64,000 nucleotides of DNA from Candidatus Poribacteria bacterium (GCA_028824125.1 JAPPES010000036.1:15476-79475); one strand, 5' to 3'; counted from the stretch's first letter, positions 10,913-45,337 are shown. Numbers and translations are program-made. The notes: generated by a model from the letters alone, not told the origin.

Positions 10913-10947
10913 CTAATCAAAAGACCAATTTGCTATTGAGGTATCAG

Positions 10948-16473: not shown

Positions 16474-16519
16474 TTCTAAAGTCTATCATAGTTATAACCT
16501 TAGGAGGGGATATATTTCA

Positions 16520-20326: not shown

Positions 20327-20499
20327 ATAATTATTTTGCACATCAACACAGACAGGGACAGGCGCCATGTGCCGCTTGATTCATAGAAATGCTGTTTAAT
20401 CGCAATTCATTGCGCCTCTTTGAACTTGTGGACGGCACACGGCGTGTGCCTACTACCTTTAAGCGCATATTTAAATCGGAATTATTTATGCACACCCCT
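20327..20499. repeat. MITE-like element between convergent genes
   Basis: 19 bp terminal inverted repeats (gggtgtgcataattatttt / aattatttatgcacacccc) flank a segment containing the ggcacacggcgtgtgcc palindrome, the same palindrome as at 10482. The right arm overlaps the stop codon of the minus-strand sigma-fusion gene. Confidence 0.55.
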
Positions 20500-24812: not shown

Positions 24813-27800
24813 TTATTGTTCAAGATTATAATGAAGCATACCGTTGTTTTGTGTACCTACGTATAACGTGCTCCCATCAACCACAAGAGAAGTTACACCA
24901 TCCGGAATCTCTGAAATAATCTTTTCCCATACACCGCTTTCCAAACGATAGATACCTGTCCCTTTGGTAACACCATAAACCGTTGTGCCATCAGCAGCCA
25001 AGCGTTCCATAATGAGATTCGTTCCCTCTGCATCGGTGATTGCACGCCATTTTATTCCATTATCTGACACAGTTACACCAGCGTCTGTTGCTACATACAC
25101 CGTGGAACCCGCAAACATAATCTCTTTGAAAGTTTCAACAGGAAATGGCAGCGCTGAGGTAAGATCGATCCAACTCCGATTATTTCCTCTATCATAAGAT
25201 ACAACGAGATGACCGTCCCGTTTGCCGACGTAGACGGTGTCCCCTGAAACAGCAAGTTTGAGCTCTTTTTCTATTATTTTCCGAGACAATCTAACGGTTT
25301 CTTCTTGTCCGGTGTCGTACCATTCAGTATCACCAGGTTCCCATCGGAGGAGTTTAAAGTTGTATTCTAAATAAAACGTATCGCCACTGACTGCAAACGG
25401 TCCCTTTAACCCAGATTCGTAAAGAGGGTCTTGGTATAATCGGCGAAAGTTTTTGTGTATGGAACCCATTTGAGCCAACTGTTTAAAGAACTGGTTTGCA
25501 CCTACAGAACTTTCTTGCAACTGTTCAAAGTAGGGCTTATCTGATCCTTTAGCAGGTTGTCGATAATGCAGTAAGTTGTATAGTGACGATGATCTAAAGA
25601 CTGGCATGCCTTTAATTGGTACTAACGTATTGCGATCCTCAGAAATCCGATACAGACTCATGAGGGCATCACTGGTAGGTCCTCGACTTTTCGCATATAG
25701 CACGCCATCAGACTCTGCTATCCGAGTAAAAGAAGGTATATGTTCTTGAATTTGTATTTCTGGGTTCACCACACGCCAAGATTGTCCCTTATCACTGGAT
25801 TTAAATACCCATTTACTTCCCATACTTCCAGAGAACATTGCATAGATGTAGTTAGATATGTTTTGTTCTTTATTCGTCTTGACACAGATTAGGTCGATAA
25901 TACTGCTTTCCAACCCTGTATAAAACCTTGTCCACGATAAACCTCCATCAATTGAGCGATATATTCCGGATTCCCCTTGTAAATATAATGTGTTTTCGTT
26001 TAACACTACTGCATTGTGAACACTATAAGGCATCAGTGAAATATCGCTGGTTTTTTCAAGTGTCCATGTGTTACCGTTGTCAATAGAGCGAATCACCGCA
26101 GCACCACGCCACCCTATTAATAATAATGTGTTTTTCACTGCGACCAGAGTTGCATGAGGTTCTTTGTCAAACGGTTCAGGCCCCATAATGGGCAATGCGT
26201 TTGTTGGTGTAATATTCGTCCATGACTGTCCTTTATCAGTTGATCGAAAAAGCCACCAGGTCCGCTCCTGCGGCCCAACATTTTTCCAATCCCATTCTCC
26301 CAATACATAAAGATGGTTTTCAGTTCCCACAAACGAAACGATTTTTTTAGCTTCATTTACCGGAAATTGCAAACGTTGCCAACTACCACCGTCAAGGTGA
26401 TATAGACCTGTGCTTGTTGCAGCAAATAGCGTGTTTTGAATTACCTTCAATGTGCTCACTTCCCCTGTCAATCCCTCGCCAACAACATTCCAGGTTTTTC
26501 CAATATTCTCAGATACGAAAATCTCATGTTCAAGGGCAAGATAAAACCTATCGTCCAACACCTCAAATCCGTTAACCCATCCTGCTGGACATTTACCAAA
26601 TGAAACCCAGGTTTCTCCATCATCCAATGAACCATATAGTTCATTGGAGTATTGACGACCATCAAGAGTGAGAACAATATAGATCATATCGTTTGACTTC
26701 ACCATAGAGACTGCATCATACAGAGTATCTGGTAGTAGTGAACTAATATCACATACAGGTTGCCATTCAGTTCCATCAACTGGTAGTTTATACAGTATAT
26801 CTTCCCAGCCTTCATCATATACAATATAGATTTCTCCCTCGGGTGTAGGGAGTAACGTCATCAATTCTCCTGAACCTACTGGACTGTTTTCCTGAATCCA
26901 CTGCTGTTTCGGGGCAGAAACGCCTTTTTCATCCGACTGCACCGCAGCCAGTAATACCTCATCCGGTTTCTGACCATCATTATTGTTTTTGCCAAGTGTA
27001 TTTGCACTCCCAAGTTGATTTTGGATATCTGGTTCTACCTCAAGATTTTGTACAATAGGAGCATTAATAAGCTCAACTTTCATCTCAGTTTGCGCATCCA
27101 AACTATAGGGTTGTTGAAAACGGACTAAGTATTGACTCCCTATACCAAGCATTAACACAATCAAAACTACACTGGATGCAGCGGCTATCCACGGCACAAG
27201 CGGTTTGCTGACGGAAGGCGTAGGTTTAAGTCGTGCGACTTCTCGCATAATGTTATCAGTTAGGTTCGGTGAAATTTGGAAATGGTCGAGTGCTTCTCTA
27301 ATCATCGTTTCCTCCTTTTGTAAACGTTGTCTGGCACGTCTCAGACGACTTTTTATTGTGCTTCCCGATACGCCTAAAAATCGGCTAATCTCCTCAACCG
27401 TCATCTCACCGAGATAATGGAGCGTCATTACCGTACGTTCGCTTTCTTTTAATTTCGCGAGCAGCGTTTTGACCACTTCACGTTGTGTCTCCGCAGCAGT
27501 TGTTGCGCGATCTGCTGTGACATGTTGTGAATAAGCATCTTTCGGTGTCATCGTTGTTTCTGCGTCCTCCAACGGTTGTGTCCGTATCCGTTTTTTGCGG
27601 ATCCATGTGTTGCATAGGTTTGTCGTAATCACGTAGAGCCACCCAGAAAACTGATTCGGATCTTTCAGCGTATGGAGTCTCTGATACACTTTCAGGAAAG
27701 TGTCTTGGGTAATGTCCTCGGCGATGTGGAAATCCCCAACTTTTCGCCATGCCAGCGCGTGAACCGGCTTCTGATACTTTTTTACCAACTCAGTGAAAGC

Positions 27801-27854
27801 GGTTTCATCGTCTGCAAGAATTCGGTGAATAAGTGCAACATCGTCTTTTTTCAT
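24813..27854 (-). CDS. ECF sigma factor domain - TM helix - BNR/Asp-box repeat beta-propeller fusion protein (1013 aa)
   Basis: Sigma regions 2 and 4 are present (HALAWRKVGDFHIAEDITQDTFL; ERTVMTLHYLGEMTVEEISRFLGVSGSTIKSRLRRARQRL). The TM helix is LVPWIAAASSVVLIVLMLGI. The C-terminus carries multiple SxDxGxTW motifs (SLDDGETW, STDKGQSW, SIDNGNTW, SIDGGLSW, SSDKGQSW). Confidence 0.8.
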   Translation of the reverse strand: MKKDDVALIHRILADDETAFTELVKKYQKPVHALAWRKVGDFHIAEDITQDTFLKVYQRLHTLKDPNQFSGWLYVITTNLCNTWIRKKRIRTQPLEDAETTMTPKDAYSQHVTADRATTAAETQREVVKTLLAKLKESERTVMTLHYLGEMTVEEISRFLGVSGSTIKSRLRRARQRLQKEETMIREALDHFQISPNLTDNIMREVARLKPTPSVSKPLVPWIAAASSVVLIVLMLGIGSQYLVRFQQPYSLDAQTEMKVELINAPIVQNLEVEPDIQNQLGSANTLGKNNNDGQKPDEVLLAAVQSDEKGVSAPKQQWIQENSPVGSGELMTLLPTPEGEIYIVYDEGWEDILYKLPVDGTEWQPVCDISSLLPDTLYDAVSMVKSNDMIYIVLTLDGRQYSNELYGSLDDGETWVSFGKCPAGWVNGFEVLDDRFYLALEHEIFVSENIGKTWNVVGEGLTGEVSTLKVIQNTLFAATSTGLYHLDGGSWQRLQFPVNEAKKIVSFVGTENHLYVLGEWDWKNVGPQERTWWLFRSTDKGQSWTNITPTNALPIMGPEPFDKEPHATLVAVKNTLLLIGWRGAAVIRSIDNGNTWTLEKTSDISLMPYSVHNAVVLNENTLYLQGESGIYRSIDGGLSWTRFYTGLESSIIDLICVKTNKEQNISNYIYAMFSGSMGSKWVFKSSDKGQSWRVVNPEIQIQEHIPSFTRIAESDGVLYAKSRGPTSDALMSLYRISEDRNTLVPIKGMPVFRSSSLYNLLHYRQPAKGSDKPYFEQLQESSVGANQFFKQLAQMGSIHKNFRRLYQDPLYESGLKGPFAVSGDTFYLEYNFKLLRWEPGDTEWYDTGQEETVRLSRKIIEKELKLAVSGDTVYVGKRDGHLVVSYDRGNNRSWIDLTSALPFPVETFKEIMFAGSTVYVATDAGVTVSDNGIKWRAITDAEGTNLIMERLAADGTTVYGVTKGTGIYRLESGVWEKIISEIPDGVTSLVVDGSTLYVGTQNNGMLHYNLEQ

Positions 27855-28024: not shown

Positions 28025-31012
28025 TTATTCTTTTTCAAGATTATAATGAAGCATACCGTTGTTTTCTGTGCCTACGTACAAAGTGCTCCCATCAACAGCA
28101 AGAGAAGTTACGCTATCAGGTATCTCTGAGACAATCTGCTCCCAAGTGCCGCTTTCCAAGCGATGGATACCTGTCTTCTCGGTAACGCCATAAACCGTTG
28201 TGCCGTCAATAGCCAAATGTTCCATGATGAGGTGTGATCCTACTGTGTCTGTTATAGCATGCCAATGTTTTCCATTATCTGATGTAGCAACACCTACGTC
28301 TGTTGCTACATACACCGTGGAACCAGCAAACAAGATCTCTTTGAAATTTTTAAGGGGTGTGGGAAACATAAAGTCCACGGGAATATCTTTCCAATTATTT
28401 CCGGCATCAAGTGATTGAACAAACCGCCCATCCCGTTTGCCAACGTAGACAGTGTTGCCTGATACCGCAAGTTTGAGGTCTTTCCGCGCTATGTCCGAAG
28501 CCAACTCAACAGTTTCTTCCACACCGGTGTCGGACCACTCAGTGTCACCGTGTTTCCATTTAAAGAGTTTAAAGTTGTACTCCATATAGAACGTGTCGCC
28601 ACTAACAGAAAAGGGCCCGCGGAGTCCAGCTTGGATAAGTTGAGGTAGCCATCTTAGATTGCCTACCTCAAACTGTTTGAAAAATTGGATTGCCCCTGAC
28701 GAATTTACTTGCAACTGTGCAAGAGTTAGTTTATCTTGTAATTCGAATGGCAATACTCTTTTTTGAGATAATAGTTGATACAACTCACTGGAGTTAAAAA
28801 TAGGTATACTTTCAATCGGCTTTAGTGTATTATCACTTTCAGATACACTATAGATAAGTGTTTTTTCATCAGAATCATCTATACCTTTGGCATGAAGAAC
28901 ACTACCAGATTTAACTATATGGGTGATGTGCGGTGGCTCGTTACCATGGGGTGTTGTTATTGGTTTTCCCATTTGAACGAAATCCCAAGACTTGCCTCTG
29001 TCAATAGTTTTTACAATTTTGCCATCAACTATTCCGTAGAGGGCTGCTGAAGTGTTTAGTCTTTTATCGAATTCTTGATAGAGAATTAGGCTATCCGCTT
29101 GATTTCCTCGGCTGAAATTCACTATGTGCCATGACTTGCCACTATCAGTGGAACGATGGAGACCATCGTCACTACCGACATAAATAGTATTTGTGTTAAT
29201 TACCACAGCAGGATTTTTACTATCCATTTGCGGTGAGGTTCCTGCTAATTGTGGCGGCATCCATGTATTTCCGCCATTGGTGGAGCGTACCATACCTTTT
29301 TCCATTACTAAGAGAGTATCACCGGCAGCAATCAGTTTAGCCCCAGCGATGAAATCTTTTACTGCCCAAGCGTTTGTTGGAGTTATATCTTCCCACGAAT
29401 TCCCAAGGTCACTTGATCGAAATATTCCCCAACTACGCTGCAGTCCACGGGACACTTTTCGAGGGTCAAGAACATCCCAGCTGAATCCAGCTAAAACATA
29501 AAACTTATCTTCAGTTGCTGCAACTGATTGAATTCCTTCAACAGACATTGGAAATTCCAAGCGTTTCCAACCGTCATCGCTGTAACGGTAAAGACCATTA
29601 CTTGTTCCAGCAAAAAGGGTGTTTTGGATATTGACTAAAGCATTAATTCCTGTCAATCCATCATTAATACTCTTCCAAGTTTTGCCTATATCTTCCGAAC
29701 GAAAAATATCGTTTTCAAAAGCCATGTAAAACGCTTGTTCTGTTAGAATTAATTCTATGGAATTCCAATATTTTTCGCTATCCCATGAGTAAAGTAAGTT
29801 CCATGATTTGCCATCATCTTTTGAAGCGAAAAGTTCACTTGATTGTGTATAATACAGTGTATCTTCCCACTTCACGATAAGGAGTTGGACTCCTATGCTG
29901 GAATGTGGCAATGTCCAAATGTCAAAGATGTGTTGCCACGTTTCCGTTTTTGCAGGCAATTTGTATATCTCTCCCTTAGTATAAGTATAGAGATCGCCTT
30001 CGGGTGTTGCAAGGAAACTATTCACAGTGCTCCCTGTAAGAGGAGTAGACTGAATCCACTCCTGTTTGGGAACAGAAACATCTTCTCCTTCCGCCTGTGC
30101 GGTGGCTAATAATATTTCATCGGGTTTCTGTCCATTGTTATCGCTTTCACCAAGTACGTTTGAATTCCCAAGTTCACGACGTACATCCGGTTTCACTTCA
30201 AGATTTTGCACAATAGGGGCGTCAACGAGTTCAACGGTCATTTCAGTCTGTGCATCTAAACTATAAGGTTGCTGAAAACGCGCGAAGTATTTGCTGCCTA
30301 ACCCAAGCATTAACACAATCAAAACAACACTGGATGCAGCGGCTATCCATGGCACAAGCGGTTTGCTGACGGAAGGCGTAGGTTTAAGTCGTGCGATTTC
30401 CCGCATGATGTTATCAGTCAAGTTAGGTGAAATTTGGAAATGGTCGAGTGCCTCTCTAATCATTGTTTCCTCCTTTTGTAAGCGGTGCCGCGCACGTTGT
30501 AGTCGGCTCTTAATTGTTCCTGCAGAAACCCCTAAAAACTTGCTAATCTCTTCGACTGTCATCTCACCGAGGTAGTGGAGTGTCATCACCGTGCGTTCGC
30601 TCTCCTTCAACTTTGCGAGGAGTCTCTTAACCACTTCGCGTTGTGCTTCAACAGCGGTTTGAGCACGTTGTTCTACGACATGTCGGGAATAAGCATCTCT
30701 TTGTCCCATAGTTGTCTCTGCGTCCTCCAACGGTTGTGTCCGTATCCGTTTTTTGCGGAGCCAAGCGTAGCATCGGCGCGTCGCAATCACATAGAGCCAC
30801 CCAGAAAACTGGTTTGGATCTTTCAGGGTGTGAAGTCTCTGATATACTTTCAGGAAGGTATCCTGTGTAATCTCTTCGGCGATGTGGAAATCCCCAACTT
30901 TTCGCCAAGCCAGCGCGTGAACCGGCTTTTGATATTTTGTCACAAGTTCAACGAAAGCGTTTTCATCACCAGCAAGAATCTGTTGGATCAGTTCAACATC
31001 GTTGTTTTTCAT
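28025..31012 (-). CDS. ECF sigma factor domain - TM helix - BNR/Asp-box repeat beta-propeller fusion protein (995 aa)
   Basis: This is a paralog of 24813..27854 with the same N-terminal sigma and TM architecture. Its BNR motifs include SKDDGKSW, SEDIGKTW, SSDLGNSW, STNGGNTW, STDSGKSW and TIDRGKSW. Confidence 0.8.
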   Translation of the reverse strand: MKNNDVELIQQILAGDENAFVELVTKYQKPVHALAWRKVGDFHIAEEITQDTFLKVYQRLHTLKDPNQFSGWLYVIATRRCYAWLRKKRIRTQPLEDAETTMGQRDAYSRHVVEQRAQTAVEAQREVVKRLLAKLKESERTVMTLHYLGEMTVEEISKFLGVSAGTIKSRLQRARHRLQKEETMIREALDHFQISPNLTDNIMREIARLKPTPSVSKPLVPWIAAASSVVLIVLMLGLGSKYFARFQQPYSLDAQTEMTVELVDAPIVQNLEVKPDVRRELGNSNVLGESDNNGQKPDEILLATAQAEGEDVSVPKQEWIQSTPLTGSTVNSFLATPEGDLYTYTKGEIYKLPAKTETWQHIFDIWTLPHSSIGVQLLIVKWEDTLYYTQSSELFASKDDGKSWNLLYSWDSEKYWNSIELILTEQAFYMAFENDIFRSEDIGKTWKSINDGLTGINALVNIQNTLFAGTSNGLYRYSDDGWKRLEFPMSVEGIQSVAATEDKFYVLAGFSWDVLDPRKVSRGLQRSWGIFRSSDLGNSWEDITPTNAWAVKDFIAGAKLIAAGDTLLVMEKGMVRSTNGGNTWMPPQLAGTSPQMDSKNPAVVINTNTIYVGSDDGLHRSTDSGKSWHIVNFSRGNQADSLILYQEFDKRLNTSAALYGIVDGKIVKTIDRGKSWDFVQMGKPITTPHGNEPPHITHIVKSGSVLHAKGIDDSDEKTLIYSVSESDNTLKPIESIPIFNSSELYQLLSQKRVLPFELQDKLTLAQLQVNSSGAIQFFKQFEVGNLRWLPQLIQAGLRGPFSVSGDTFYMEYNFKLFKWKHGDTEWSDTGVEETVELASDIARKDLKLAVSGNTVYVGKRDGRFVQSLDAGNNWKDIPVDFMFPTPLKNFKEILFAGSTVYVATDVGVATSDNGKHWHAITDTVGSHLIMEHLAIDGTTVYGVTEKTGIHRLESGTWEQIVSEIPDSVTSLAVDGSTLYVGTENNGMLHYNLEKE

Positions 31013-37743: not shown

Positions 37744-40377
37744 CTAAGCCTTATCCTCAATGACGGCTTGCGCTGCCGCAAGACGAGCGATTGGCACACG
37801 GAACGGAGAACACGATACATAATCGAACCCTAATCCGTAGCAGAACTTCACAGAATTCGGTTCGCCGCCGTGCTCACCGCAGATACCGACTTTCAAGTCA
37901 GGACGTGCAGAACGCCCTTTTTCACACCCGATTTGCAGTAGGCTACCAACACCTTCTTGGTCAAGCACCTGGAACGGATCGTATTCGAGGACACCGTTTC
38001 TAACATAGTCGTCAAGGAATTTTACGGCATCATCCCGACTCATGCCAAACGTTGTTTGGGTGAGGTCGTTTGTCCCATAAGAGAAAAATTCTGCTTCTGC
38101 GGCGATTTTATCAGCAGTAAGCGCTGCACGGGGCAGCTCAATCATCGTGCCAACAAGATATTCAACGCGAGTCCCTGTTTCTTTAAAAACCTCTTCTGCT
38201 GTATCTACAACAACCTTGCGTTGTAATGAAAGTTCATTGATATGTCCAACGAGTGGGATCATAATCTCAGGTAAAACCTTAATACCACGTTTTACCACAT
38301 CAACAGCGGCTTCAAAAATAGCACGTGCTTGCATCTCAGTAATCTCTGGATAAACAATACCAAGTCTACACCCACGATGCCCCAGCATCGGATTGAATTC
38401 ATGCAATTCTTCAACACGTTCACGGAGTTTTTGCGGGTCAACGTTAATCCTATCAGCAAGATCAGTGATTTCAGACTCGTTTTTCGGCAGGAATTCGTGC
38501 AGAGGCGGATCAAGCGTGCGAATAGTTACGGGATAGCCAGCCATCGCCTCAAAAATTCCGATGAAATCTGAACGTTGGTGCGAAAGCAGTTTCGCCAATG
38601 CCTGCTTACGTTCTAACGTTTCATCTGCAAGGATCATCTCCCGAACAGCATCAATCCCTGTCCCGAAGAACATGTGCTCAGTCCTACAAAGTCCGATACC
38701 TTCAGCGCCAAACCCTCTTGCATTTTTGGCATCTTCTGGCGTATCCGCGTTGGTGCGAACGTCAAGTGTGCGAACCTCATCCGCCCATTCCATAAGCGTT
38801 CCGAATTGTCCGCTTAGTTCAGGTTGGATAAGGGAAACTTGCCCGTTTAGCACATCACCTGTGGAGCCGTTGAGTGTGATGTAATCGCCTTCAGCGTAAC
38901 GTTTGCCACCAGCATAGAATTCCAATGCTTCTTCATTGATAAACAGATCCGAACACCCAGCAACACAGCTTTTTCCCATACCGCGTGCAACAACAGCGGC
39001 GTGGCTTGTCATGCCACCACGCGCAGTAAGAATACCTTCAGCAGCATCCATCCCACCAATATCTTCTGGCGATGTTTCTGTCCGGACAAGAATAACTTTC
39101 TCACCTTCGGCTGCGAGTTCCTCTGCGCGTAGTGCCGTGAAGACTACCTTACCGACAGCGGCACCTGGAGAAGCTGGCAAACCTTGTGTGATGACTTCAA
39201 CAGAAGCATCTGGGTCTACACTCGGATGCAACAATTGGTCAAGATCATTGGCAGGAACACGCGTCAAAGCGGTTTCTTTATCAATCAAACCTTCCTCAAC
39301 CATCTCTACGGCAATTCGCACAGCAGCTTGCCCCGTGCGTTTTCCATTACGGGTTTGGAGCATATAGAGCTTACTATCCTGAATTGTGAACTCTACGTCC
39401 TGCATGTCACTGTAATGCTTTTCAAGTCTCAATCCAATGTCAACCAATTCCTTATACGCATCGGGCAAAATGTTTCTCAATTCGGCGACAGGAAGAGGCG
39501 TGCGGATACCAGCGACCACGTCTTCACCCTGCGCGTTAATAAGGAATTCCCCGTAAAATTGGTTCGCGCCGGTCGAAGGGTTACGAGTGAAGGCGACTCC
39601 TGATCCGGAGGTTCCACCCATATTTCCGAATACCATGGCTTGCACGTTAACAGCTGTGCGCCCGAGTTCTTCAGAAATATCGTTGAGACGACGGTAGGTA
39701 ATCGCACGTTGATTGCCAGAAGATTCAAACACAGCATCGCGCGCCATGTCTAACTGGCGGCGAGGTTCATCAGGAAAATCGTTTCCTGTGTGCTGTTTTA
39801 CGGCGTTCTTGAATTCATGGACAAGAGCAACTAAATCGTCTGCTTCTAACTCGGTGTCTAATGTAACACCTTTCGCCTTTTTCTTTTCTTCAAGTAAATG
39901 TTCAAATTCATCGTGATCGACATTGAGCACAACGCTTCCGAACATTTGGACGAAACGCCTATATGAATCGTAAGCAAAACGTTCATTTTCAGATCTGGCG
40001 ATAAGTCCTTTAACGGCATCATCATTTAAACCGAGGTTGAGAATGGTATCCATCATCCCTGGCATTGAAACCGCTGCACCTGAGCGAACCGCAAGAAGAA
40101 GCGGGTTTTCAGTATCTCCAAATTTGGCGCCAAGTGCGTCTTCTAATTTCTGCAGGTTTTCGGTAATCTGTTGGTCAAGACCGCTGGGGTACTTCTCATC
40201 GTTATCGTAGTAGAATTTGCATACTTCCGTGGAGATTGTGAAGCCTGGGGGTACTGGCACGCCGAGATTGGTCATCTCAGCAAGATTTGCGCCTTTCCCA
40301 CCGAGTAGCGTCCGCATTGTTGCGTCGCCTTCGCCTTCACCGGCTCCAAAGAAGTAAACATACTTCGGTTGTGTCAT
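37744..40377 (-). CDS. ppdK: pyruvate, phosphate dikinase
   Basis: The 877 aa ORF starts with FGAGEGEGDATMRTLLGGKGANLAEM. It contains the phospho-His domain GGMTSHAAVVARGMGK and a C-terminal PEP-utilizing TIM barrel. Confidence 0.9.
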   Translation of the reverse strand: MTQPKYVYFFGAGEGEGDATMRTLLGGKGANLAEMTNLGVPVPPGFTISTEVCKFYYDNDEKYPSGLDQQITENLQKLEDALGAKFGDTENPLLLAVRSGAAVSMPGMMDTILNLGLNDDAVKGLIARSENERFAYDSYRRFVQMFGSVVLNVDHDEFEHLLEEKKKAKGVTLDTELEADDLVALVHEFKNAVKQHTGNDFPDEPRRQLDMARDAVFESSGNQRAITYRRLNDISEELGRTAVNVQAMVFGNMGGTSGSGVAFTRNPSTGANQFYGEFLINAQGEDVVAGIRTPLPVAELRNILPDAYKELVDIGLRLEKHYSDMQDVEFTIQDSKLYMLQTRNGKRTGQAAVRIAVEMVEEGLIDKETALTRVPANDLDQLLHPSVDPDASVEVITQGLPASPGAAVGKVVFTALRAEELAAEGEKVILVRTETSPEDIGGMDAAEGILTARGGMTSHAAVVARGMGKSCVAGCSDLFINEEALEFYAGGKRYAEGDYITLNGSTGDVLNGQVSLIQPELSGQFGTLMEWADEVRTLDVRTNADTPEDAKNARGFGAEGIGLCRTEHMFFGTGIDAVREMILADETLERKQALAKLLSHQRSDFIGIFEAMAGYPVTIRTLDPPLHEFLPKNESEITDLADRINVDPQKLRERVEELHEFNPMLGHRGCRLGIVYPEITEMQARAIFEAAVDVVKRGIKVLPEIMIPLVGHINELSLQRKVVVDTAEEVFKETGTRVEYLVGTMIELPRAALTADKIAAEAEFFSYGTNDLTQTTFGMSRDDAVKFLDDYVRNGVLEYDPFQVLDQEGVGSLLQIGCEKGRSARPDLKVGICGEHGGEPNSVKFCYGLGFDYVSCSPFRVPIARLAAAQAVIEDKA

Positions 40378-40485
40378 TAAAATTCTCCTGTTATTGTCCT
40401 TATCATATTGTTGTCTTCTATAGAAAATGTATAGGTATTTTCGATTTTACTATAAATGGAATTATATAGCACTCTCCCAAAAAAG

Positions 40486-41011
40486 TCAAAGAAAATCGGT
40501 TGTGGTTAGAGAGAGGAATTCAATTGTCATATCGGTGTGGAGCTGCTGAATAGTTGTAAAACAGATATTGATGTCGTTTTCACTGACACCGTCAAAATTG
40601 TCTACCTCTGTGCCCACGACTTTTCCCGTCAATATGGATATTCCCACTAAAGAGATATTTTGTGGCACGTGGGTTGAGGAAATTGTCCCTTGTCTTTTCA
40701 ATTATGTTGGTAGAATTGGCAAAAAATAGGAAGTTGCGGTAGCCATTTTCATAGAGGTAGAGGATTAAGCCTGCCATGATAAGCGTTTTGCCGCTGCCGA
40801 TTGCCATGTTGAAAAGTAGATGTAGGGGGTTTTCTTTACCGGGAAAATTGTTGTTAAAGCAGTGGATGAATCTTGCAAATGCGTCTGTTTGGTATTCGCG
40901 GAGTTCAAAAACGGGACTCAGGTTTTGCGTAATGCTATTGGGCATTTCCTTTTTCAGCATTCCAAAATTGGAGAGCGTATCAAGTTGTTCATATAGAAAT
41001 TGTTCAGGCAT
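40486..41011 (-). pseudogene. remnant of a type III (or type I) restriction enzyme Res / DEAD-like helicase subunit, truncated and frameshifted
   Basis: The 40592..41011 ORF has a Walker A motif (NMAIGSGKTLIMAGL) and a YQ...A motif. The downstream frame 40486..40701 continues with FTTIQQLHTDM. Together they cover only about 200 aa of a ~900 aa protein. Confidence 0.5.
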
Positions 41012-41278
41012 TGTTATTCCTTAATACCTCGTGCGTTATTTCGGAGAGGTCTACGTAGAATTGACTTTTACGCAATTTTTGTAGTATAATATAATTAATA
41101 GCCAGGGACGAAAATGGCTCCATGCCTGGTGATTGTCGGGCTGCGGTTCGCACAATTCTATATCCCCGGCTTTTTTATTTTCTCCACTGTAAAACCTTTG
41201 CTGTCACCGCCTTCGTCTACAAAATAGTGCCGAATTGAAGTAGGTGTTCCAGGGATTTGTCTATTCTCCATATTTGCG

Positions 41279-42667
41279 CTACGAAGACTCTTCACCGAGT
41301 ATCAAACTGTCCCAATAGTCATTTTTAGGGAATTTCCTTTCTGTAGAACATTGCTTCATAATTTTTTCTATTGAATCCCGACATAAGTCTTGCGCTCTTG
41401 TAATAAACTTATTTATAGGAACAGGCTCTCCTTCAATTATAACATTTTCCTTTAACTCTCCGCCATGCACTACCTTTGAACGACACTTATATAGTTCCTT
41501 AAACACTTCAAACAACTTTGTTCGATCTTCTTGATCTTTTCCCAAGTGCCAAGAGGCGCGAACAGCGAATTTAAAAGTTGATTCATGCGCGTCTGGTAAA
41601 TAGAGTGCTTCAAAGGCTATTACCAAGTCAATTATTTTATCTTGAAAATTCTGATATGTCTTTGACTTTATCCATCTATTAATCACTATATCCAATTTTT
41701 TCCTGACGTCTGAATTTAATTTTTCCAAAAGTTCGTACAGACGTTTGGCTTCATCTATTTGAGCTTTTCCAGCCGTAGTGAAACTTCCAAATGGATCAGC
41801 ATCATAACTTCGGGTAATTCCTCCTTGCCCGGGGGCATTCAGATTGAAGAGTTCATCCTCTGCCAAAAATAGCCACTTGAGAGAAATTTGAACTGCAGAA
41901 TTACAAGCCAAAGACATGGCTTGGCAAAATTTCTCATAGAAATCATCTGCCTTGAATTTCGGAAATTTTCCACCAATTGCTTCGATTTGAAATGGAATAT
42001 CGTCCCTTTGCAACTGTTTTAGAGAAGGTTTGTGAAATATAGGAGACATGAAAGCGTCAATGATAAGCAGTGTTTTTCCGAGGAAGGAATGTGCTGCCAT
42101 CTGAGTAATTGCCATAACAGGCAAATAGTTTGAAAGTTCTGATGTTGAAAGAGGAAGAGGGACCAGCCTTACTCCTTCAAAACCTTGTATTTCCGCCTCT
42201 ACTCTTATTCCTTCAAGTAATGCAAAGTATTGAAAAGGTGCGTATGTATTTTTTGTGCATTTATCAAAATCCGCTACTGCTCTCCCTATTCCGTGTACAA
42301 TAGCAATTTTCAAGAGTTGATCCAGTAGACTATCCAGGGTATATCCACCTGGAGAACCAATTCCTACTATAAAAAAACTTGCGGATTGGATCTTGTCCTC
42401 ATGGATAAATGAAGTAAACTCCTCCCTGATGAAATCAAGAAGTTTTGATTTCGTAGTCGTATTTACGATGTGCGATTCATAACGTGTTGCGGGCGATAAG
42501 AAATTTATTGAATGAAATATCCAGTATTGCTGTAGGATCGATCTATATTCATTGACATCAATAATAGGCGGCAATTGATGTCTATTTGCTGAATCTATTC
42601 GTATTTCCAAATTCTCTATCGCTTCATTTAGCAACTGTCTTAATTCCTGTTTTCTTACATCATTCAT
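41279..42667 (-). CDS. hypothetical protein with a C-terminal HEPN (Apea-like) Rx4H motif
   Basis: The 462 aa ORF has a C-terminal ...FEALYLPDAH...KELYKCRSKVVHGGEL segment (Rx4H). It overlaps the upstream ORF by 8 nt, which suggests an operon. Confidence 0.4.
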   Translation of the reverse strand: MNDVRKQELRQLLNEAIENLEIRIDSANRHQLPPIIDVNEYRSILQQYWIFHSINFLSPATRYESHIVNTTTKSKLLDFIREEFTSFIHEDKIQSASFFIVGIGSPGGYTLDSLLDQLLKIAIVHGIGRAVADFDKCTKNTYAPFQYFALLEGIRVEAEIQGFEGVRLVPLPLSTSELSNYLPVMAITQMAAHSFLGKTLLIIDAFMSPIFHKPSLKQLQRDDIPFQIEAIGGKFPKFKADDFYEKFCQAMSLACNSAVQISLKWLFLAEDELFNLNAPGQGGITRSYDADPFGSFTTAGKAQIDEAKRLYELLEKLNSDVRKKLDIVINRWIKSKTYQNFQDKIIDLVIAFEALYLPDAHESTFKFAVRASWHLGKDQEDRTKLFEVFKELYKCRSKVVHGGELKENVIIEGEPVPINKFITRAQDLCRDSIEKIMKQCSTERKFPKNDYWDSLILGEESS

Positions 42668-43307
42668 CGCTTTTCACCTTTTTATAAGAATTTCCATAAA
42701 ACATCTTATTCAACGCCTTATCTTCCACACTCACCCCAAAATCCGCATCCTCTATTTCGGAAAGGTTGACATAGAGTTGATTTTTATCCAGCAGTTTTGC
42801 TAATAGGTGTTTTTGTGCGTCAAGGCTGTCTATAGACATGAAATAAGCTTCTGCTTCTTCCGCACTGCCTTTTGCTTCTTCCGATTTTTCTGGGTTCTCG
42901 GCGTTAACATACCAATTGCGTTTTTCCTCTTCTTTTATCTGTCCGCCTTCAAGCACACAATCTTTGTAGGGCCAAACGAGCGAGACTTCGCCGCGTTCAC
43001 GCAGATATTTTCCATCAATGTTCAAGCCGATTTTGTTGCGAAACTGGGTGTAAGAATTGGCAAGGAAGTTTTTAGCGGTGATGTAGTCAATGAAGGTATT
43101 GTGATTGAAAACCCAATGCCCATCAATTTCGTCAAAAAAGGTTGTTTTTATTTCTGGGTCGGACAGCAACAATTTAATGAGGTTGTGGTCAAGTTGCCAT
43201 GCGTGGTCTTTAACTGCGGCGGGGAGGAGTTCGTCTGATTCGTCTACAAAGTCAGGATCGGTTTTGAGGAGAGCAATAAGTTTTTCGTTGAAGTTTTGTT
43301 TTGACAT
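42660..43307 (-). CDS. hypothetical protein resembling the N-terminal domain of type III R-M Mod methyltransferases (no catalytic domain present)
   Basis: The pattern LIKLLLSDPEIKTTFFDEIDGHWVFNHNTFIDYI...FLANSYTQFRNKIGL resembles Mod N-termini as I recall them. No DPPY or FxGxG motifs occur downstream. Confidence 0.3.
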   Translation of the reverse strand: MSKQNFNEKLIALLKTDPDFVDESDELLPAAVKDHAWQLDHNLIKLLLSDPEIKTTFFDEIDGHWVFNHNTFIDYITAKNFLANSYTQFRNKIGLNIDGKYLRERGEVSLVWPYKDCVLEGGQIKEEEKRNWYVNAENPEKSEEAKGSAEEAEAYFMSIDSLDAQKHLLAKLLDKNQLYVNLSEIEDADFGVSVEDKALNKMFYGNSYKKVKSDE

Positions 43308-43315
43308 AGAGATTA

Positions 43316-43615
43316 TTAACCATTACCGATCAATTTTAACGCGATACTCACTGAGAATATAATACCGCCTGTTAGGATTGCACCTAAAAACAATTGAATC
43401 ACTGTCATTTTGCCATTAAGTCCTGATATGCTTGTTTCAAGATCGGATATATTTTTTGATAGTTCTTTATGTTCTTTCCTGTTTTCTTCATCCATTTTTT
43501 TTACATCAGACTTTAATTCATTTACATCAGACTTTAATTCATTTACATCAGACTTTAATTCGTTTATATTATCTTCAAGTCTTTTCAGAATTTCAGTATT
43601 AAGTTCATTTGCCAT
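43316..43615 (-). CDS. small coiled-coil, tail-anchored membrane protein with a 3x NELKSDV repeat
   Basis: A 21 nt tandem repeat occurs three times at ~43505..43567. The C-terminal TM helix is VIQLFLGAILTGGIIFSVSIALKLI. Confidence 0.45.
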   Translation of the reverse strand: MANELNTEILKRLEDNINELKSDVNELKSDVNELKSDVKKMDEENRKEHKELSKNISDLETSISGLNGKMTVIQLFLGAILTGGIIFSVSIALKLIGNG

Positions 43616-43846
43616 TGTTTCTCACCTCCTATAAAATCGTTTGTGTTACCTGCCATCTGAAATCAGCTGTTGCTAAAGCAGCTATACATGTTAACGCAAT
43701 AGAAAATAGAAAGATTGCAAAATTAAATTGCAGTGTTCCTACTGTTCCCTTTTCCAATAACTCTAATTCGTACTTTTTGGCTTCATACTATATCTGAATT
43801 GCGATTATATAGTGGATTCTACAATTAACTGGACATCTGATCTATA

Positions 43847-43905
43847 GGAGGGAACTCCGATTCCCGACTATTAATGGTTTCGTCGCGATTCGGAGATCGC
43901 TCCTA
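43847..43905. repeat. family C repeat copy
   Basis: The segment ggagggaactccgattcccgac ... gtcgcgattcggagatcgctcctac matches 10596..10640. Confidence 0.5.
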
Positions 43906-43975
43906 CAGAATATATGTAAACTTATTTATATAATTTATTATAACTCAAAGTTATTTTATATTTGGATGTTTAGGA

Positions 43976-45337
43976 TTAAATCGAATAAATCATTCGACTC
44001 GCCTCTTCAAATTCAGGTTCGAGTGGGTCAGTAGACAAGTACAGTTTTTGGTAAGGTTCATACAGTTGGATATAACTCCAATTCACACCACACAGAACTT
44101 TTCCATTATTGACAAGTTTGATAAATCTTCCTCGAAACTTTGCGCGGGTACGCTGAGGGGGTGCATGCATCGCGTGTCGAATCTGGGCATCATCTAAAAT
44201 CCGTTCTGTCAAACCTCGTTTTTCGGCTTTGTAGAAAATGCCTTCATCCTGTCGAATGTTGTGATATTCTAAATCTAAGCGTTTCACTTCCGCGGAATCC
44301 CAGCTTAGGGAGCGGTGATTGACATAAGTCTCAATCCATTTTCGTTTAATGACCCAGTCCAGCTCACGTTCCAATTGCATTGGATCATCTTCCAGACAAG
44401 TCATAACGTATTCCCAACGCGCCATTACCTCGTCAGTCGTTGGATCAGATTCTGCTTGTTCAAGATACCGTTTTGCACATTCAAAGTATTGCCATTGAAG
44501 TTCGACAGCAGAAAGTCGTTTTCCGTTTTCAAGTTCAATAAGTCGCTTGCAGGCGATGTCCTCAGAGATTTCGTGTATCGCTTGCACAGAATTGCGCAGG
44601 GCAAAACGTTCATTGATAAAATGATCTTCAATCATGCGTAGAATGATTCCAGTTGTGCCGACTTTCAAAAACGTTGAAAATTCGGACATATTGGAATCAC
44701 CGACGATAACATGTAACCGTCTATATTTTTCTCGGTCAGCGTGAGGTTCGTCGCGGGTGTTGATAATGCCGCGTGCTGTTGTTGTAGCGATAGAAATTTC
44801 TTCTCGGATGTGTTGGGCACGTTGTGAAATCTCATAGAAGCCTTGGTCGCTTCGTTTAACTTTACCCGCGCCTGAGTATATTTGTCGGGTGACAAAAAAA
44901 GGTATGAGTTGTGATGCTAACTGCCGAAAACTAACTTTTTCGCGCTCCATAAGATAGTTTTCATGACAGCCGTAAGTATTTCCGACTGTATCCAAGTTAT
45001 TCTTAAAAATGGTGATCTTGCCACGAAAACCGTCCGCGCGCATTCTTCGCTCAGCAGTTGTGGCAAGCCGAGTTACGATTCGTTCACCTGCCTTATCATG
45101 CGCGACTAATTCGATGACATCATCGCATTCTGGCGTTGCGTATTCAGGATGACATCCAATATCTTGGTAAAACCGCGCGCCGTTTTCTAAAAACACATCG
45201 GGATACATCCGCCCAGAAATAATTTCGCGAAACAGATACATAACGACATTCTGGACCGTTAGTTTTTTGCTTCTGTTTTTCTCTGGGGTACAGATTATCC
45301 CGTACTCGGTTTCCAATCCGTATATTCTACGATGCAT
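43976..45337 (-). CDS. pafA: Pup--protein ligase PafA
   Basis: The 453 aa ORF starts MHRRIYGLETEYGI. It belongs to the Dop/PafA carboxylate-amine ligase family and lacks the Dop-specific insertion. It sits downstream of prcA, as in Mycobacterium. Confidence 0.8.
   Translation of the reverse strand: MHRRIYGLETEYGIICTPEKNRSKKLTVQNVVMYLFREIISGRMYPDVFLENGARFYQDIGCHPEYATPECDDVIELVAHDKAGERIVTRLATTAERRMRADGFRGKITIFKNNLDTVGNTYGCHENYLMEREKVSFRQLASQLIPFFVTRQIYSGAGKVKRSDQGFYEISQRAQHIREEISIATTTARGIINTRDEPHADREKYRRLHVIVGDSNMSEFSTFLKVGTTGIILRMIEDHFINERFALRNSVQAIHEISEDIACKRLIELENGKRLSAVELQWQYFECAKRYLEQAESDPTTDEVMARWEYVMTCLEDDPMQLERELDWVIKRKWIETYVNHRSLSWDSAEVKRLDLEYHNIRQDEGIFYKAEKRGLTERILDDAQIRHAMHAPPQRTRAKFRGRFIKLVNNGKVLCGVNWSYIQLYEPYQKLYLSTDPLEPEFEEASRMIYSI

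What the first reader, a model, noticed from the sequence alone, without database searches (positions are those of the whole stretch)
40400..43620. Decayed type III R-M remnant flanking an intact HEPN(Rx4H)-like two-gene operon, a possible defence islet
A ~200 aa Res/helicase fragment lies at 40486..41011. It carries a Walker A motif and a frame switch. An ORF resembling only the N-terminal domain of type III Mod methylases lies at 42660..43307. Between them is an intact 462 aa protein whose C-terminus carries KCRSKVVHGG, an Rx4H HEPN-type RNase motif as in Apea-like or Abi proteins. It is translationally coupled by an ATGA overlap to the Mod-N-like ORF. Either an R-M system was disrupted by insertion of a HEPN toxin-like gene, or the Mod-like N-domain has been recruited as the partner of a HEPN effector. 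A small 3x NELKSDV-repeat tail-anchored membrane protein follows at 43316..43615.
Basis: partly seen in the sequence, partly recalled or inferred. Interest (0 to 1): 0.5.

Follow-up and report, generated by a model that had tools for sequence, protein, structure and literature searches.

The report
Decayed type III R-M keeping HEPN gene
A sponge-symbiont (Poribacteria) genome holds the wreck of a type III restriction-modification operon whose only intact passenger is an uncharacterised protein with a predicted RNA-cutting HEPN domain, a likely stand-alone anti-phage effector that relatives carry between working mod and res genes.

The parts
43316..43615 (-). 99-aa coiled-coil protein with 3x NELKSDV and a C-terminal transmembrane segment. 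It is adjacent to the R-M remnant but not part of it, and is a lineage-specific insertion.
   Evidence: ORF. 21-nt x3 repeat D1. Only sub-threshold coiled-coil hits. Window 43969..43309 has no counterpart in sister loci L088 and L091, where the Pup ligase gene is followed 30 nt later by the mini-Mod.
42660..43307 (-). Mini-Mod. It joins the type III Mod N-terminal domain (PF12564 region, residues 1-130, 43307..42918) in frame to the Mod C-terminal tail (residues ~131-215, 42917..42660). The methyltransferase core and target-recognition domain (about residues 131-503 of a full Mod) are deleted.
   Evidence: PF12564 E 1.1e-21 and PADLOC MTase_III positions 33-145 of 708. BLASTP to L003 Mod matches residues 3-129 (70%) and 497-575 (54%). 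The same junction EEEKR|NWYVNAE occurs in P0288 (L088) and P0289 (L091). dN/dS is 0.13-0.18.
41279..42667 (-). X, an intact 462-aa protein of an uncharacterised family. It has an N-terminal alpha/beta domain (residues 1-295, 42667..41783) and a C-terminal HEPN domain (residues 296-462, 41782..41279).
41465..41482 (-). Codons for R396-S-K-V-V-H401, the predicted HEPN catalytic R-x4-H motif of X.
   Evidence: R396 and H401 are invariant in alignment A1. S397 and H401 are invariant and R396 at least 90% conserved in the divergent set A2. The motif aligns with the Ec2ApeA stretch IYRTRNLIVHTG, which holds catalytic R502 (bioRxiv 10.64898/2026.01.26.701840).
41115..41295 (-). Remnant of a DUF3800 cargo gene. 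The first ~28-36 codons lie at 41295..41188. The last codons plus conserved downstream sequence lie at about 41213..41115. The body of the gene is deleted.
   Evidence: tblastn gives 86% identity over 36 residues to the 292-aa DUF3800 ORF of L013, plus weaker matches to the C-terminal and downstream region of the L031 and L039 ORFs. PF12686 is assigned to the cluster representative.
41037..41070 (-). Degenerate second copy of the Mod 3' tail, just upstream of the Res start.
   Evidence: Direct repeat D2 matches 42753-42786 at 82% over 34 nt. The translated match is 45% over 22 residues (KSQFYVDLSEI versus KNQLYVNLSEI), E 2e-4. Extra tail copies precede cargo genes in relatives.
40492..41011 (-). 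Res (type III restriction/helicase subunit) stub. Residues 1-131 are in one frame (41011..40619, Walker A GSGKT at 40798..40784). A frameshift follows, then residues ~127-176 (40632..40492). About 690 codons are missing.
   Evidence: PF04851 and REase_III hits. tblastn. Sister contig L084 has 2152 nt (L084 3140..5291) where the window has 134 nt (40523..40390), then identical ppdK sequence.
40461..40489 (-). Promoter-like site (TTGACT-17-TATAAT, 11 of 12 matches) inside the Res deletion scar, 84 nt upstream of the ppdK start at 40377. This is a consensus match only.
   Evidence: The number of such sites in the region is not above the shuffle expectation.

Best explanation
The region is the remains of a type III restriction-modification operon. 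In Poribacteria and other sponge and coral symbionts, operons of this type carry extra 'cargo' defence genes between mod and res.

In this genome the R-M part is dead:
- mod lost its methyltransferase core and target-recognition domain through an in-frame deletion.
- A DUF3800 cargo gene is reduced to its two ends.
- res is frameshifted and lost its 3' ~2.1 kb.

The only intact cargo is X, a two-domain protein. It has an N-terminal ~295-residue alpha/beta domain with no known relatives and a C-terminal HEPN domain with an invariant R-x4-H.

Inferred mechanism. X is a latent HEPN ribonuclease of the abortive-infection type. It probably dimerises through the HEPN domain to form the composite active site. 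Its N-terminal domain keeps it off until an infection cue arrives. It then cuts tRNA or other RNA and stops growth of the infected cell. X does not need the R-M enzyme, because it is also found without one.

Shown: the gene anatomy, the HEPN fold and motif, the ancestral Mod-X-Res order, and the independence of X from R-M.
Inferred: RNase activity, latency, sensing by the N-domain, and the anti-phage role.
For: Anatomy:
-.

HEPN domain:
- Domain-only model has pLDDT 89.7.
- R396 and H401 are invariant.
- The best, though not significant, sequence match among solved structures is Ec2ApeA at its catalytic motif. ApeA is an experimentally shown tRNA-cleaving Abi protein (bioRxiv 10.64898/2026.01.26.701840).

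Ancestral state:
- L084 has Mod-X(77% identical)-Res(868 aa), followed by 55 nt identical to the window's ppdK start.
- Mod lies upstream of X on the same strand in 33 of 78 loci. Res lies downstream in 28.
- 15 of 66 well-flanked loci have X with full-length Mod and Res.
- The link is also seen outside Poribacteria (L063, L082).

Autonomy of X:
- X is intact with no Mod or Res within 5 kb in 19 of 66 loci.
- X is intact beside decayed R-M in L013, L025, L032 and L088.

Defence context:
- Neighbours include HTH+Peptidase_M78 (ImmA/IrrE) with DUF4411, and DUF3800.
- Three sister loci carry X alleles only 36-77% identical at one chromosomal site.
- The N-domain is 90.5% identical to P0002 while the HEPN domain is 52% identical. 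This modular shuffling is typical of defence genes.

General precedent:
- At least 16 HEPN clades are linked to R-M loci, and PrrC-EcoprrI is the paradigm (PMC3710099, read).
Against: - No experiment exists on any member of the family.
- No sequence or profile homology to any characterised HEPN nuclease goes beyond the catalytic motif (hhalign probability 1.3-1.6% against ApeA).
- The N-domain has no detectable relative, so 'sensor' is an analogy only.
- The tight mod-X junction (8-nt overlap here and in L084) and the purifying selection on the mini-Mod could mean that X is not fully autonomous.
- 'No R-M nearby' was scored with Poribacteria Mod and Res queries within 5 kb, so distant or remote partners could be missed.
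- The 80 genome loci were retrieved with two peptide patterns taken from a Poribacteria-rich alignment, so the taxonomic picture is biased.
Confidence: 0.55

Rival explanations
1. PrrC-like guard with a domesticated partner. X is normally held inactive by the type III enzyme and fires when a phage neutralises restriction. After the R-M decayed, the in-frame mini-Mod (N-domain plus C-tail) was kept as the piece that binds and silences or regulates X. In effect it acts as an antitoxin or scaffold.
For: - The same mini-Mod junction persists in three diverged lineages. Pairwise dN/dS is 0.13-0.18 overall and 0.065-0.13 in the N-domain (binomial p 1e-7 to 1e-13). dS (0.23-0.33) is close to that of the flanking pafA (0.12-0.21).
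- At least six further in-frame N+C mini-Mods have different junctions (P0290, P0291, P0292, P0297, P0299, P0303). One of them sits in a mini-Mod - DUF3800 - X - Res-stub locus (L089).
- mod and X are translationally coupled.
- The N-terminal ~170 residues are an extra domain absent from EcoP15I Mod.
- PrrC gives a precedent (PMC3710099).
Against: - Mini-Mods occur without X: L091 has a different downstream gene, and L092 has DUF3800 only.
- X occurs with no Mod at all (19 of 66 loci), or with only the last ~35 Mod codons upstream (L025, L043).
- X also lies next to Mods that lack a detectable N-domain match (L063, L082).
- The selection signal could be imported by gene conversion from intact mod paralogs in this recombining region. 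N-domain dS between the window and L091 is 0.50 against 0.21 for the flank.
- About one third of random deletions are in frame anyway.
Confidence: 0.2
2. Neutral debris around a recombination slot. The Mod and Res ends have no protein function. They survive because their conserved sequences flank a cargo slot where homologous recombination swaps defence genes, and because translation through the Mod tail drives the coupled downstream gene. The apparent selection on the mini-Mod reflects donor sequences. X is still the HEPN effector, as in the best explanation.
For: - Extra partial copies of the Mod 3' tail sit directly in front of cargo genes in L024, L025, L029, L033, L043 and L052, and in degenerate form before Res in the window.
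- At one chromosomal site three strains carry different cargo: X allele A, X allele B plus ImmA/DUF4411, or an unrelated gene. All lie between the same mini-Mod and Res stub.
- The X domains are mosaic.
- The Res stubs of the window and L088 are only 66% identical at protein level despite 94-96% identical flanks.
Against: - The shared deletion junction shows that recombination has not restored or replaced the mini-Mod as a whole.
- Translational coupling alone needs an open frame, not amino-acid conservation, yet the N-domain dN/dS is 0.065-0.13.
Confidence: 0.15
3. X is not a nuclease effector. It would be a non-catalytic HEPN protein, for example a nucleotide or RNA binder or a regulator or accessory subunit of the type III enzyme, left stranded and on its way to decay.
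For: - Some HEPN families are non-catalytic (PMC3710099).
- X is broken or truncated in about 19 of 66 loci, so loss is common.
Against: - R396 and H401, plus E353, S397 and G403, are invariant or nearly so over sequences down to 26% identity.
- X is intact in many loci that lack R-M.
- All 33 invariant columns of A1 are kept in the window copy.
Confidence: 0.07
4. One reading: a HEPN toxin gene inserted into and thereby broke a mod-res operon.
For: - The gene order alone (Mod fragment, X, Res fragment) is compatible with it.
- GC content falls to 35-39% over 41-44 kb.
Against: - The same order with full-length Mod and Res is common, and occurs at this very chromosomal site in L084.
- The Mod remnant keeps its own 3' end abutting X exactly as intact Mods do (8-nt overlap in both).
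- The lesions are internal deletions away from the X borders.
Confidence: 0.03

Closest known systems
ApeA (Apea-like HEPN, single-protein abortive-infection tRNA anticodon nuclease; Ec1-Ec4ApeA structures 9hxb-9hxn)
   Same: - C-terminal HEPN domain with R-x4-H in the shared local motif IY-x-x-R-[SN]-x-x-V-H-x-G.
- A large N-terminal region without known homologs.
- A single-gene unit that can occur alone or embedded in R-M operons (PMC3710099; bioRxiv 10.64898/2026.01.26.701840).
   Different: - No Pfam HEPN_Apea or ApeA_NTD1 hit.
- Profile-profile comparison aligns only the catalytic motif (probability 1.3-1.6%).
- X is 462 residues against about 590.
- The X N-region is mixed alpha/beta, whereas ApeA is described as predominantly alpha-helical.
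- The X HEPN domain is compact with a beta-hairpin insert, not a split HEPN with large insertions.
PrrC-EcoprrI (HEPN anticodon nuclease encoded inside a type Ic R-M locus)
   Same: A HEPN gene sits between R-M genes in the same orientation. This suggests a second line of defence coupled to restriction (PMC3710099 and PMC3632139).
   Different: - PrrC has an ABC-ATPase N-domain. X has no P-loop or ATPase match.
- The host system here is type III (mod-res), not type I (hsdMSR).
- X is often found without any R-M.
Type III restriction-modification systems (EcoP15I-like Mod2Res)
   Same: - The Mod remnant matches PF12564 and the PADLOC MTase_III profile. The Res stub matches PF04851 and the REase_III profile.
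- Full-length relatives align with EcoP15I Mod from residue 177 on.
   Different: - Here the catalytic and recognition parts of Mod and about 80% of Res are gone.
- This Mod clade has an extra ~170-residue N-terminal domain not alignable with EcoP15I.
- Cargo genes lie between mod and res.
Phase-variable type III mod genes (phasevarions of Haemophilus, Neisseria, Helicobacter; from my own knowledge)
   Same: Relatives carry a G7-G18 (or C9) homopolymer inside the mod ORF, right after codon ~167-170.
   Different: - The tract is deleted in the window's mini-Mod.
- Switching is not shown.
- Some frameshifts could be homopolymer errors of long-read assemblies.

Membership tests
HEPN superfamily | Four-helix up-and-down bundle HEPN fold | tested here: met
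HEPN superfamily | Conserved R-x4-6-H motif | tested here: met
   RSKVVH at residues 396-401. R and H are invariant in 38 sequences. H is invariant and R at least 90% conserved in 41 divergent sequences.
HEPN superfamily | Dimer with composite active site and RNase activity | not testable with these tools
   No multimer prediction or experiment was available.
ApeA family | Match to HEPN_Apea / ApeA_NTD1 models, or significant profile similarity to ApeA proteins | tested here: not met
   No Pfam hit at E<=1 in 79 members. hhalign of A1 and A2 against ApeA alignment A4 gives probability 1.3-1.6%. The profile search of solved-structure sequences gives Ec2ApeA at E 0.16, covering the motif only.
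ApeA family | N-terminal plus Mid domains of ApeA (ligand pocket formed with the HEPN domain) | tested here: inconclusive
PrrC/RloC anticodon nucleases | N-terminal ABC-type ATPase fused to the HEPN domain | tested here: not met
   No ATPase family hit in Pfam, NCBIfam or PADLOC.
HEPN-MNT toxin-antitoxin | Adjacent minimal nucleotidyltransferase antitoxin | tested here: not met
   None of the recurrent neighbour clusters I scanned against Pfam is a nucleotidyltransferase. The scanned clusters are Mod, Res, ImmA/M78, DUF4411, DUF3800, a Y1-transposase-like gene, and a 967-aa + 212-aa pair.
Type III R-M Mod subunit (functional) | N6/N4 methyltransferase core (DPPY and AdoMet motifs) and target-recognition domain | tested here: not met
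   Only Mod residues 3-129 and 497-575 are represented. There is no PF01555 hit.
Type III R-M Mod subunit (functional) | PF12564 N-terminal region | tested here: met
   E 1.1e-21, 77.3 bits against a cut-off of 25.
Type III R-M Res subunit (functional) | Complete SF2 helicase motifs and C-terminal endonuclease domain | tested here: not met
   Only residues 1-176 of about 870 remain, with a frameshift. Walker A is present and the rest is absent.
Known defence systems in PADLOC-DB v2.0.0 | HMM match of X to any system component | tested here: not met
   No family at E<=1.

The most novel reading that the evidence does not exclude
Type III mod-res operons of sponge and coral symbionts act as a cargo platform for defence genes. 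Genes such as X, DUF3800, ImmA/DUF4411 and a 967-aa + 212-aa pair would move as cassettes of [Mod 3' tail + gene] by recombination within the tail. After the R-M decays, an in-frame 'mini-Mod' (extra N-domain plus C-tail) would be retained under purifying selection as a functional scaffold or regulator of the cargo, for instance a silencer of the HEPN nuclease X. The poly-G tract at the linker between the N-domain and the methyltransferase core would let phase-OFF cells make the same N-domain-only product.
Probability: 0.2. Interest if true: 0.75.

Novelty: new variant of a known kind. Interest (0 to 1): 0.52.

Why it matters
HEPN RNases embedded in R-M loci are a known theme, with PrrC as the paradigm and comparative genomics from 2013. 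Very few have been tested, and none is known for type III systems.

X defines a sizeable family that is absent from Pfam, NCBIfam and PADLOC. It has 526 representative clusters at E<=1e-30 and about 10,000 more distant relatives. Its N-terminal domain has an unknown fold. The family is so far seen mostly in sponge and coral symbionts, whose phage defence is hard to study.

If X is an autonomous Abi nuclease, it adds a candidate system and a new sensor domain. If the mini-Mod proves functional, it would be a case of an R-M subunit domesticated after loss of its enzymatic core. It would also offer a concrete model for how R-M operons serve as exchange slots for defence genes.

Tried and rejected
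1. Direct family assignment of X with Pfam, NCBIfam, PADLOC and solved-structure sequences found nothing, for the window protein and for 79 homologs. Two members gave weak HEPN_RiboL-PSP hits (E 0.013), which I treat as noise.
3. ApeA membership. I found a genuine ApeA homolog on a B. thuringiensis plasmid (L087; E 1e-27 to Ec3ApeA) and built an ApeA alignment. hhalign then showed no relationship beyond the catalytic motif, so I rejected membership.
4. The 242-aa gene next to X in some loci is Y1-transposase-like and sporadic (6 loci). I do not count it as part of the system.
5. WD40 and TPR neighbour clusters are repeat-protein artefacts of the clustering.
6. A pattern scan of IMG/VR viral contigs for X found no relative. 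PHROGs gave one family of unknown function (phrog_28161) over the HEPN core.
7. Promoter and terminator scans over the region were no better than shuffles.
8. Literature searches found no description of this family or of a HEPN gene inside type III R-M.
9. A 35-aa ApeA fragment was too short for the homolog search.
Full report
**Source and layout.** The 462-aa protein is identical to an NCBI entry from a Candidatus Poribacteria MAG, where it is named 'HEPN domain-containing protein'. The finding lies on the minus strand between a Pup-ligase gene (45337..43976) at the end of a proteasome cluster and pyruvate phosphate dikinase (ppdK; 40377..37744). GC content falls to 35-39% over 41-44 kb, against 42-48% around it.

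**Check of the observation.** All ORFs exist as described, with these results:
- **Res stub.** ORF 41011..40592 matches PF04851 and positions 10-139 of an 873-position type III restriction-enzyme profile. It carries GSGKT at residues 72-76. Intact Res proteins align to residues 1-131, then in another frame to residues ~127-176, and then to nothing.
- **Mod remnant.** The 215-aa ORF matches PF12564 (E 1e-21) and the type III methyltransferase profile. Comparison with a full-length relative shows it is not an N-domain alone. Residues 4-130 correspond to Mod 3-129 (70% identical), and residues 124-208 correspond to Mod 497-575 (54%). The methyltransferase core, including the DPPY region, and the recognition domain were removed by an in-frame deletion.
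- **Overlap.** The mod stop and the X start overlap by 8 nt (ATGAATGA), with a GGTGA ribosome-binding site upstream.
- **99-aa protein.** It is real (three 21-nt repeats) but lies 5' of mod. It is missing from two sister loci, so it is a lineage-specific 660-nt insertion.
- **Missed features.** Two features lie between X and res. One is the two ends of a DUF3800 gene. The other is a degenerate second copy of the Mod 3' tail.

**What X is.** X matches no model in Pfam, NCBIfam, PADLOC or solved-structure sequences, for the window copy or for 79 homologs.
- **Family size.** It belongs to a large family: 706 hits in the clustered database. With a profile there are 526 representative clusters at E<=1e-30 and 10,132 at E<=1e-3.
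- **Whole-protein model.** The AlphaFold2 model is confident (pLDDT 87, pTM 0.85). It shows an alpha/beta N-terminal region (residues 1-295) and a helical C-terminal domain. Whole-protein fold searches were uninformative.
- **Conserved residues.** R396 and H401 of RSKVVH are invariant, together with E353 and G403. They hold in a set only 26-37% identical to the window protein.
- **N-terminal domain.** It has no detectable structural or sequence relative.

**Relation to ApeA.**
- **Best match.** The best match of the HEPN-domain profile among solved structures is Ec2ApeA, though it is not significant (E 0.16). It aligns X 'IYxxRSxaVHxG' with ApeA 'IYRTRNLIVHTG', which contains catalytic R502 (bioRxiv 10.64898/2026.01.26.701840).
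- **Membership test.** I recovered a true ApeA homolog from a B. thuringiensis plasmid (E 1e-27 to Ec3ApeA), collected its relatives, and added the Ec2 and Ec3 sequences. Profile-profile comparison aligned only the catalytic motif, at probability 1.3-1.6%.
- **Verdict.** X works like an ApeA-type protein on paper, with an unknown N-region plus a HEPN domain, but it is not a member of that family. It also lacks the ATPase domain of PrrC and any MNT partner.

**Context in relatives.** A scan of one genome per species returned 80 loci. Nearly all come from Poribacteria and other lineages that the record titles place in sponge or coral MAG sets. These include Chloroflexota, Acidimicrobiia, Nitrospirales, Binatia, Latescibacteria and Gammaproteobacteria. 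The retrieval patterns came from a Poribacteria-rich alignment, so this picture is biased.
- A Mod gene lies upstream of X on the same strand in 33 of 78 loci, and a Res gene downstream in 28.
- Among 66 loci with enough flank:
  - 15 have intact X with full-length Mod and Res;
  - 19 have intact X and no Mod or Res within 5 kb;
  - several have intact X amid Mod and Res remnants (L013, L025, L032).
- Other recurrent neighbours are typical of defence islands:
  - HTH+Peptidase_M78 (ImmA/IrrE), 13 loci, with DUF4411, 11 loci;
  - DUF3800, 9 loci;
  - a 967-aa + 212-aa pair with no Pfam hit, 6 loci.

**Reconstruction at this chromosomal site.** Three other contigs carry the same locus.
- **L084:** Mod (at least 402 aa, cut by the contig end) - X (77% identical, same 8-nt overlap) - Res (868 aa). 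This is followed by 55 nt identical to the window's ppdK start. Where L084 has 2152 nt of res, the window has 134 nt.
- **L088:** Pup ligase - mini-Mod (208 aa, 92% identical, same junction EEEKR|NWYVNAE) - a very different X allele (36% identical) - ImmA/M78 - DUF4411 - Res stub (134 aa) - ppdK.
- **L091:** the same mini-Mod followed by an unrelated gene.

The ancestor was therefore an intact Mod-X(-DUF3800)-Res operon. X did not break it. The lesions are internal deletions and a frameshift. The space between the Mod tail and the Res start behaves as a slot whose content is exchanged. The window's X is itself mosaic. Its N-domain is 90.5% identical to the L084 allele, but its HEPN domain is only 52% identical and is closest (67%) to another allele.

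**The mini-Mod.** A homolog search with the 215-aa ORF returned mostly short proteins. I see two explanations for the short proteins.
1. **Homopolymer tracts.** Several relatives carry a homopolymer just after codon ~167-170 of mod, at the linker between the extra N-domain and the methyltransferase core. The tracts are G18 in L090; G10, G9, G9 and G7 in L053, L027, L018 and L042; and C9 in L019. A frameshift there yields ~175-aa N-only ORFs. This is the hallmark of phase-variable type III mod genes (my own knowledge). Long-read homopolymer errors cannot be excluded. EcoP15I Mod aligns only from residue 177 onward, so the N-domain is an addition.
2. **Repeated in-frame fusions.** In-frame N+C fusions with at least six other junctions exist, for example in L089 (mini-Mod - DUF3800 - X - ... 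- Res stub) and L092 (mini-Mod - DUF3800 - internally deleted Res, no X).

For the three alleles that share the window's junction, pairwise dN/dS is 0.13-0.18. It is 0.065-0.13 in the N-domain (p 1e-7 to 1e-13) and 0.2-0.64 in the tail. dS is similar to that of the flanking pafA gene. This suggests the mini-Mod is still constrained as a protein. Gene conversion from intact mods in this recombining region is a serious alternative, because N-domain dS reaches 0.50 in one pair.

**Mod-tail copies.** An HMM of the last 55 Mod residues finds extra partial copies directly upstream of cargo genes:
- before X in L024, L025, L029, L033 and L043;
- before DUF3800 in L025;
- before the 212-aa gene in L052.

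The window has a degenerate copy before res. This fits cargo moving together with a piece of the upstream Mod tail. It also helps explain why deletions spare that tail.

**Mechanism.** I commit to the following reading. X is a latent HEPN ribonuclease of the abortive-infection type. Its N-domain acts as sensor or regulator, and it can work without the R-M enzyme. The type III operon is its usual vehicle and possibly its first-line partner. Here the vehicle has decayed.
- **Shown:** the anatomy, the HEPN fold and motif, the ancestral gene order, and the independence of X from R-M.
- **Inferred:** RNase activity, latency, sensing by the N-domain, and the anti-phage role.

The main rival (0.2) is a PrrC-like dependence in which the mini-Mod survives as the silencer of X. 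A second rival (0.15) treats the remnants as functionless recombination anchors. The concept of HEPN genes in R-M loci is established (PMC3710099, PMC3632139). I found no description of this family or of a HEPN gene inside type III R-M.

**Verdict.** This is a real feature, correctly spotted, with one interpretation refuted (insertional disruption) and one left open (Mod fragment as partner). It is a new variant of a known kind and of moderate interest. The interest would rise if the mini-Mod or the cargo-slot model proves right.

Noticed in passing
L090 6505-6522; also L053 ~7115, L027 ~8314, L018 ~8478, L042 ~7033, L019 ~8425 (locus coordinates): Homopolymer tracts (G18, G10, G9, G9, G7, C9) lie inside type III mod ORFs at a fixed position just after codon ~167-170, at the linker between the PF12564 N-domain and the methyltransferase core. 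They split the ORF in those records. They could be phase-variable mod genes in sponge symbionts, or homopolymer assembly errors.
   Followed up: partly
window 41279-42667 compared with L084 1202-2608: X is mosaic. Its N-domain is 90.5% identical to the sister allele, but its HEPN domain is only 52% identical, with the break at the domain boundary (about residue 300). The HEPN domain is closest (67%) to P0034. This points to domain-level recombination between alleles.
   Followed up: yes
L024 9912-9998, L025 8353-8427 and 9874-10008, L029 9838-9990, L033 9817-10005, L043 9856-10011, L052 11675-11827; window 41037-41070: Extra partial copies of the Mod C-terminal tail (...LLDKNQLYVNLSEIED...) lie directly upstream of cargo genes (X, DUF3800, a 212-aa gene), and in degenerate form upstream of res in the window. 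They look like cassette junctions.
   Followed up: partly
window 43309-43969: The 99-aa coiled-coil and transmembrane protein (3x NELKSDV), together with its upstream region, is a 660-nt insertion absent from sister loci L088 and L091. Its function is unknown, and its family hits are only sub-threshold coiled-coil matches.
   Followed up: partly
L023, L024, L033, L041, L052, L053 (e.g. L033 6891-9794 and L052 11838-12476): A conserved pair of genes, about 967 aa and 212 aa, with no Pfam match sits between X and res in six type III operons. It is another uncharacterised cargo module.
   Followed up: no
window 24813-27854 and 28025-31012 (minus strand): Two tandem ~1000-aa proteins have an ECF-type sigma factor N-terminus (regions 2 and 4) fused to long BNR/Sortilin/PQQ-like beta-propeller regions. 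Large WD40 (10930-13920, 20499-24428) and TPR (14281-20317) proteins lie nearby.
   Followed up: no
window 40461-40489 (minus strand): A near-consensus sigma-70-like site (TTGACT-17-TATAAT) lies in the scar of the res deletion, 84 nt upstream of the ppdK start. It may now serve ppdK.
   Followed up: no
L001/L004 6691-7522: In one Poribacteria genome an IS630-family transposase (HTH_Tnp_IS630 + DDE_3) is inserted into the 3' part of mod. The Mod tail is left as a separate 130-aa ORF just before X. This is another route of mod inactivation.
   Followed up: partly
L087 1540-3318 (B. thuringiensis plasmid pBMB267): A 592-aa 'hypothetical protein' next to xerS and a cry gene is a clear ApeA homolog (E 1e-27 to Ec3ApeA), yet it gets no Pfam hit. 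The Pfam HEPN_Apea model therefore misses this Bacillus clade.
   Followed up: partly
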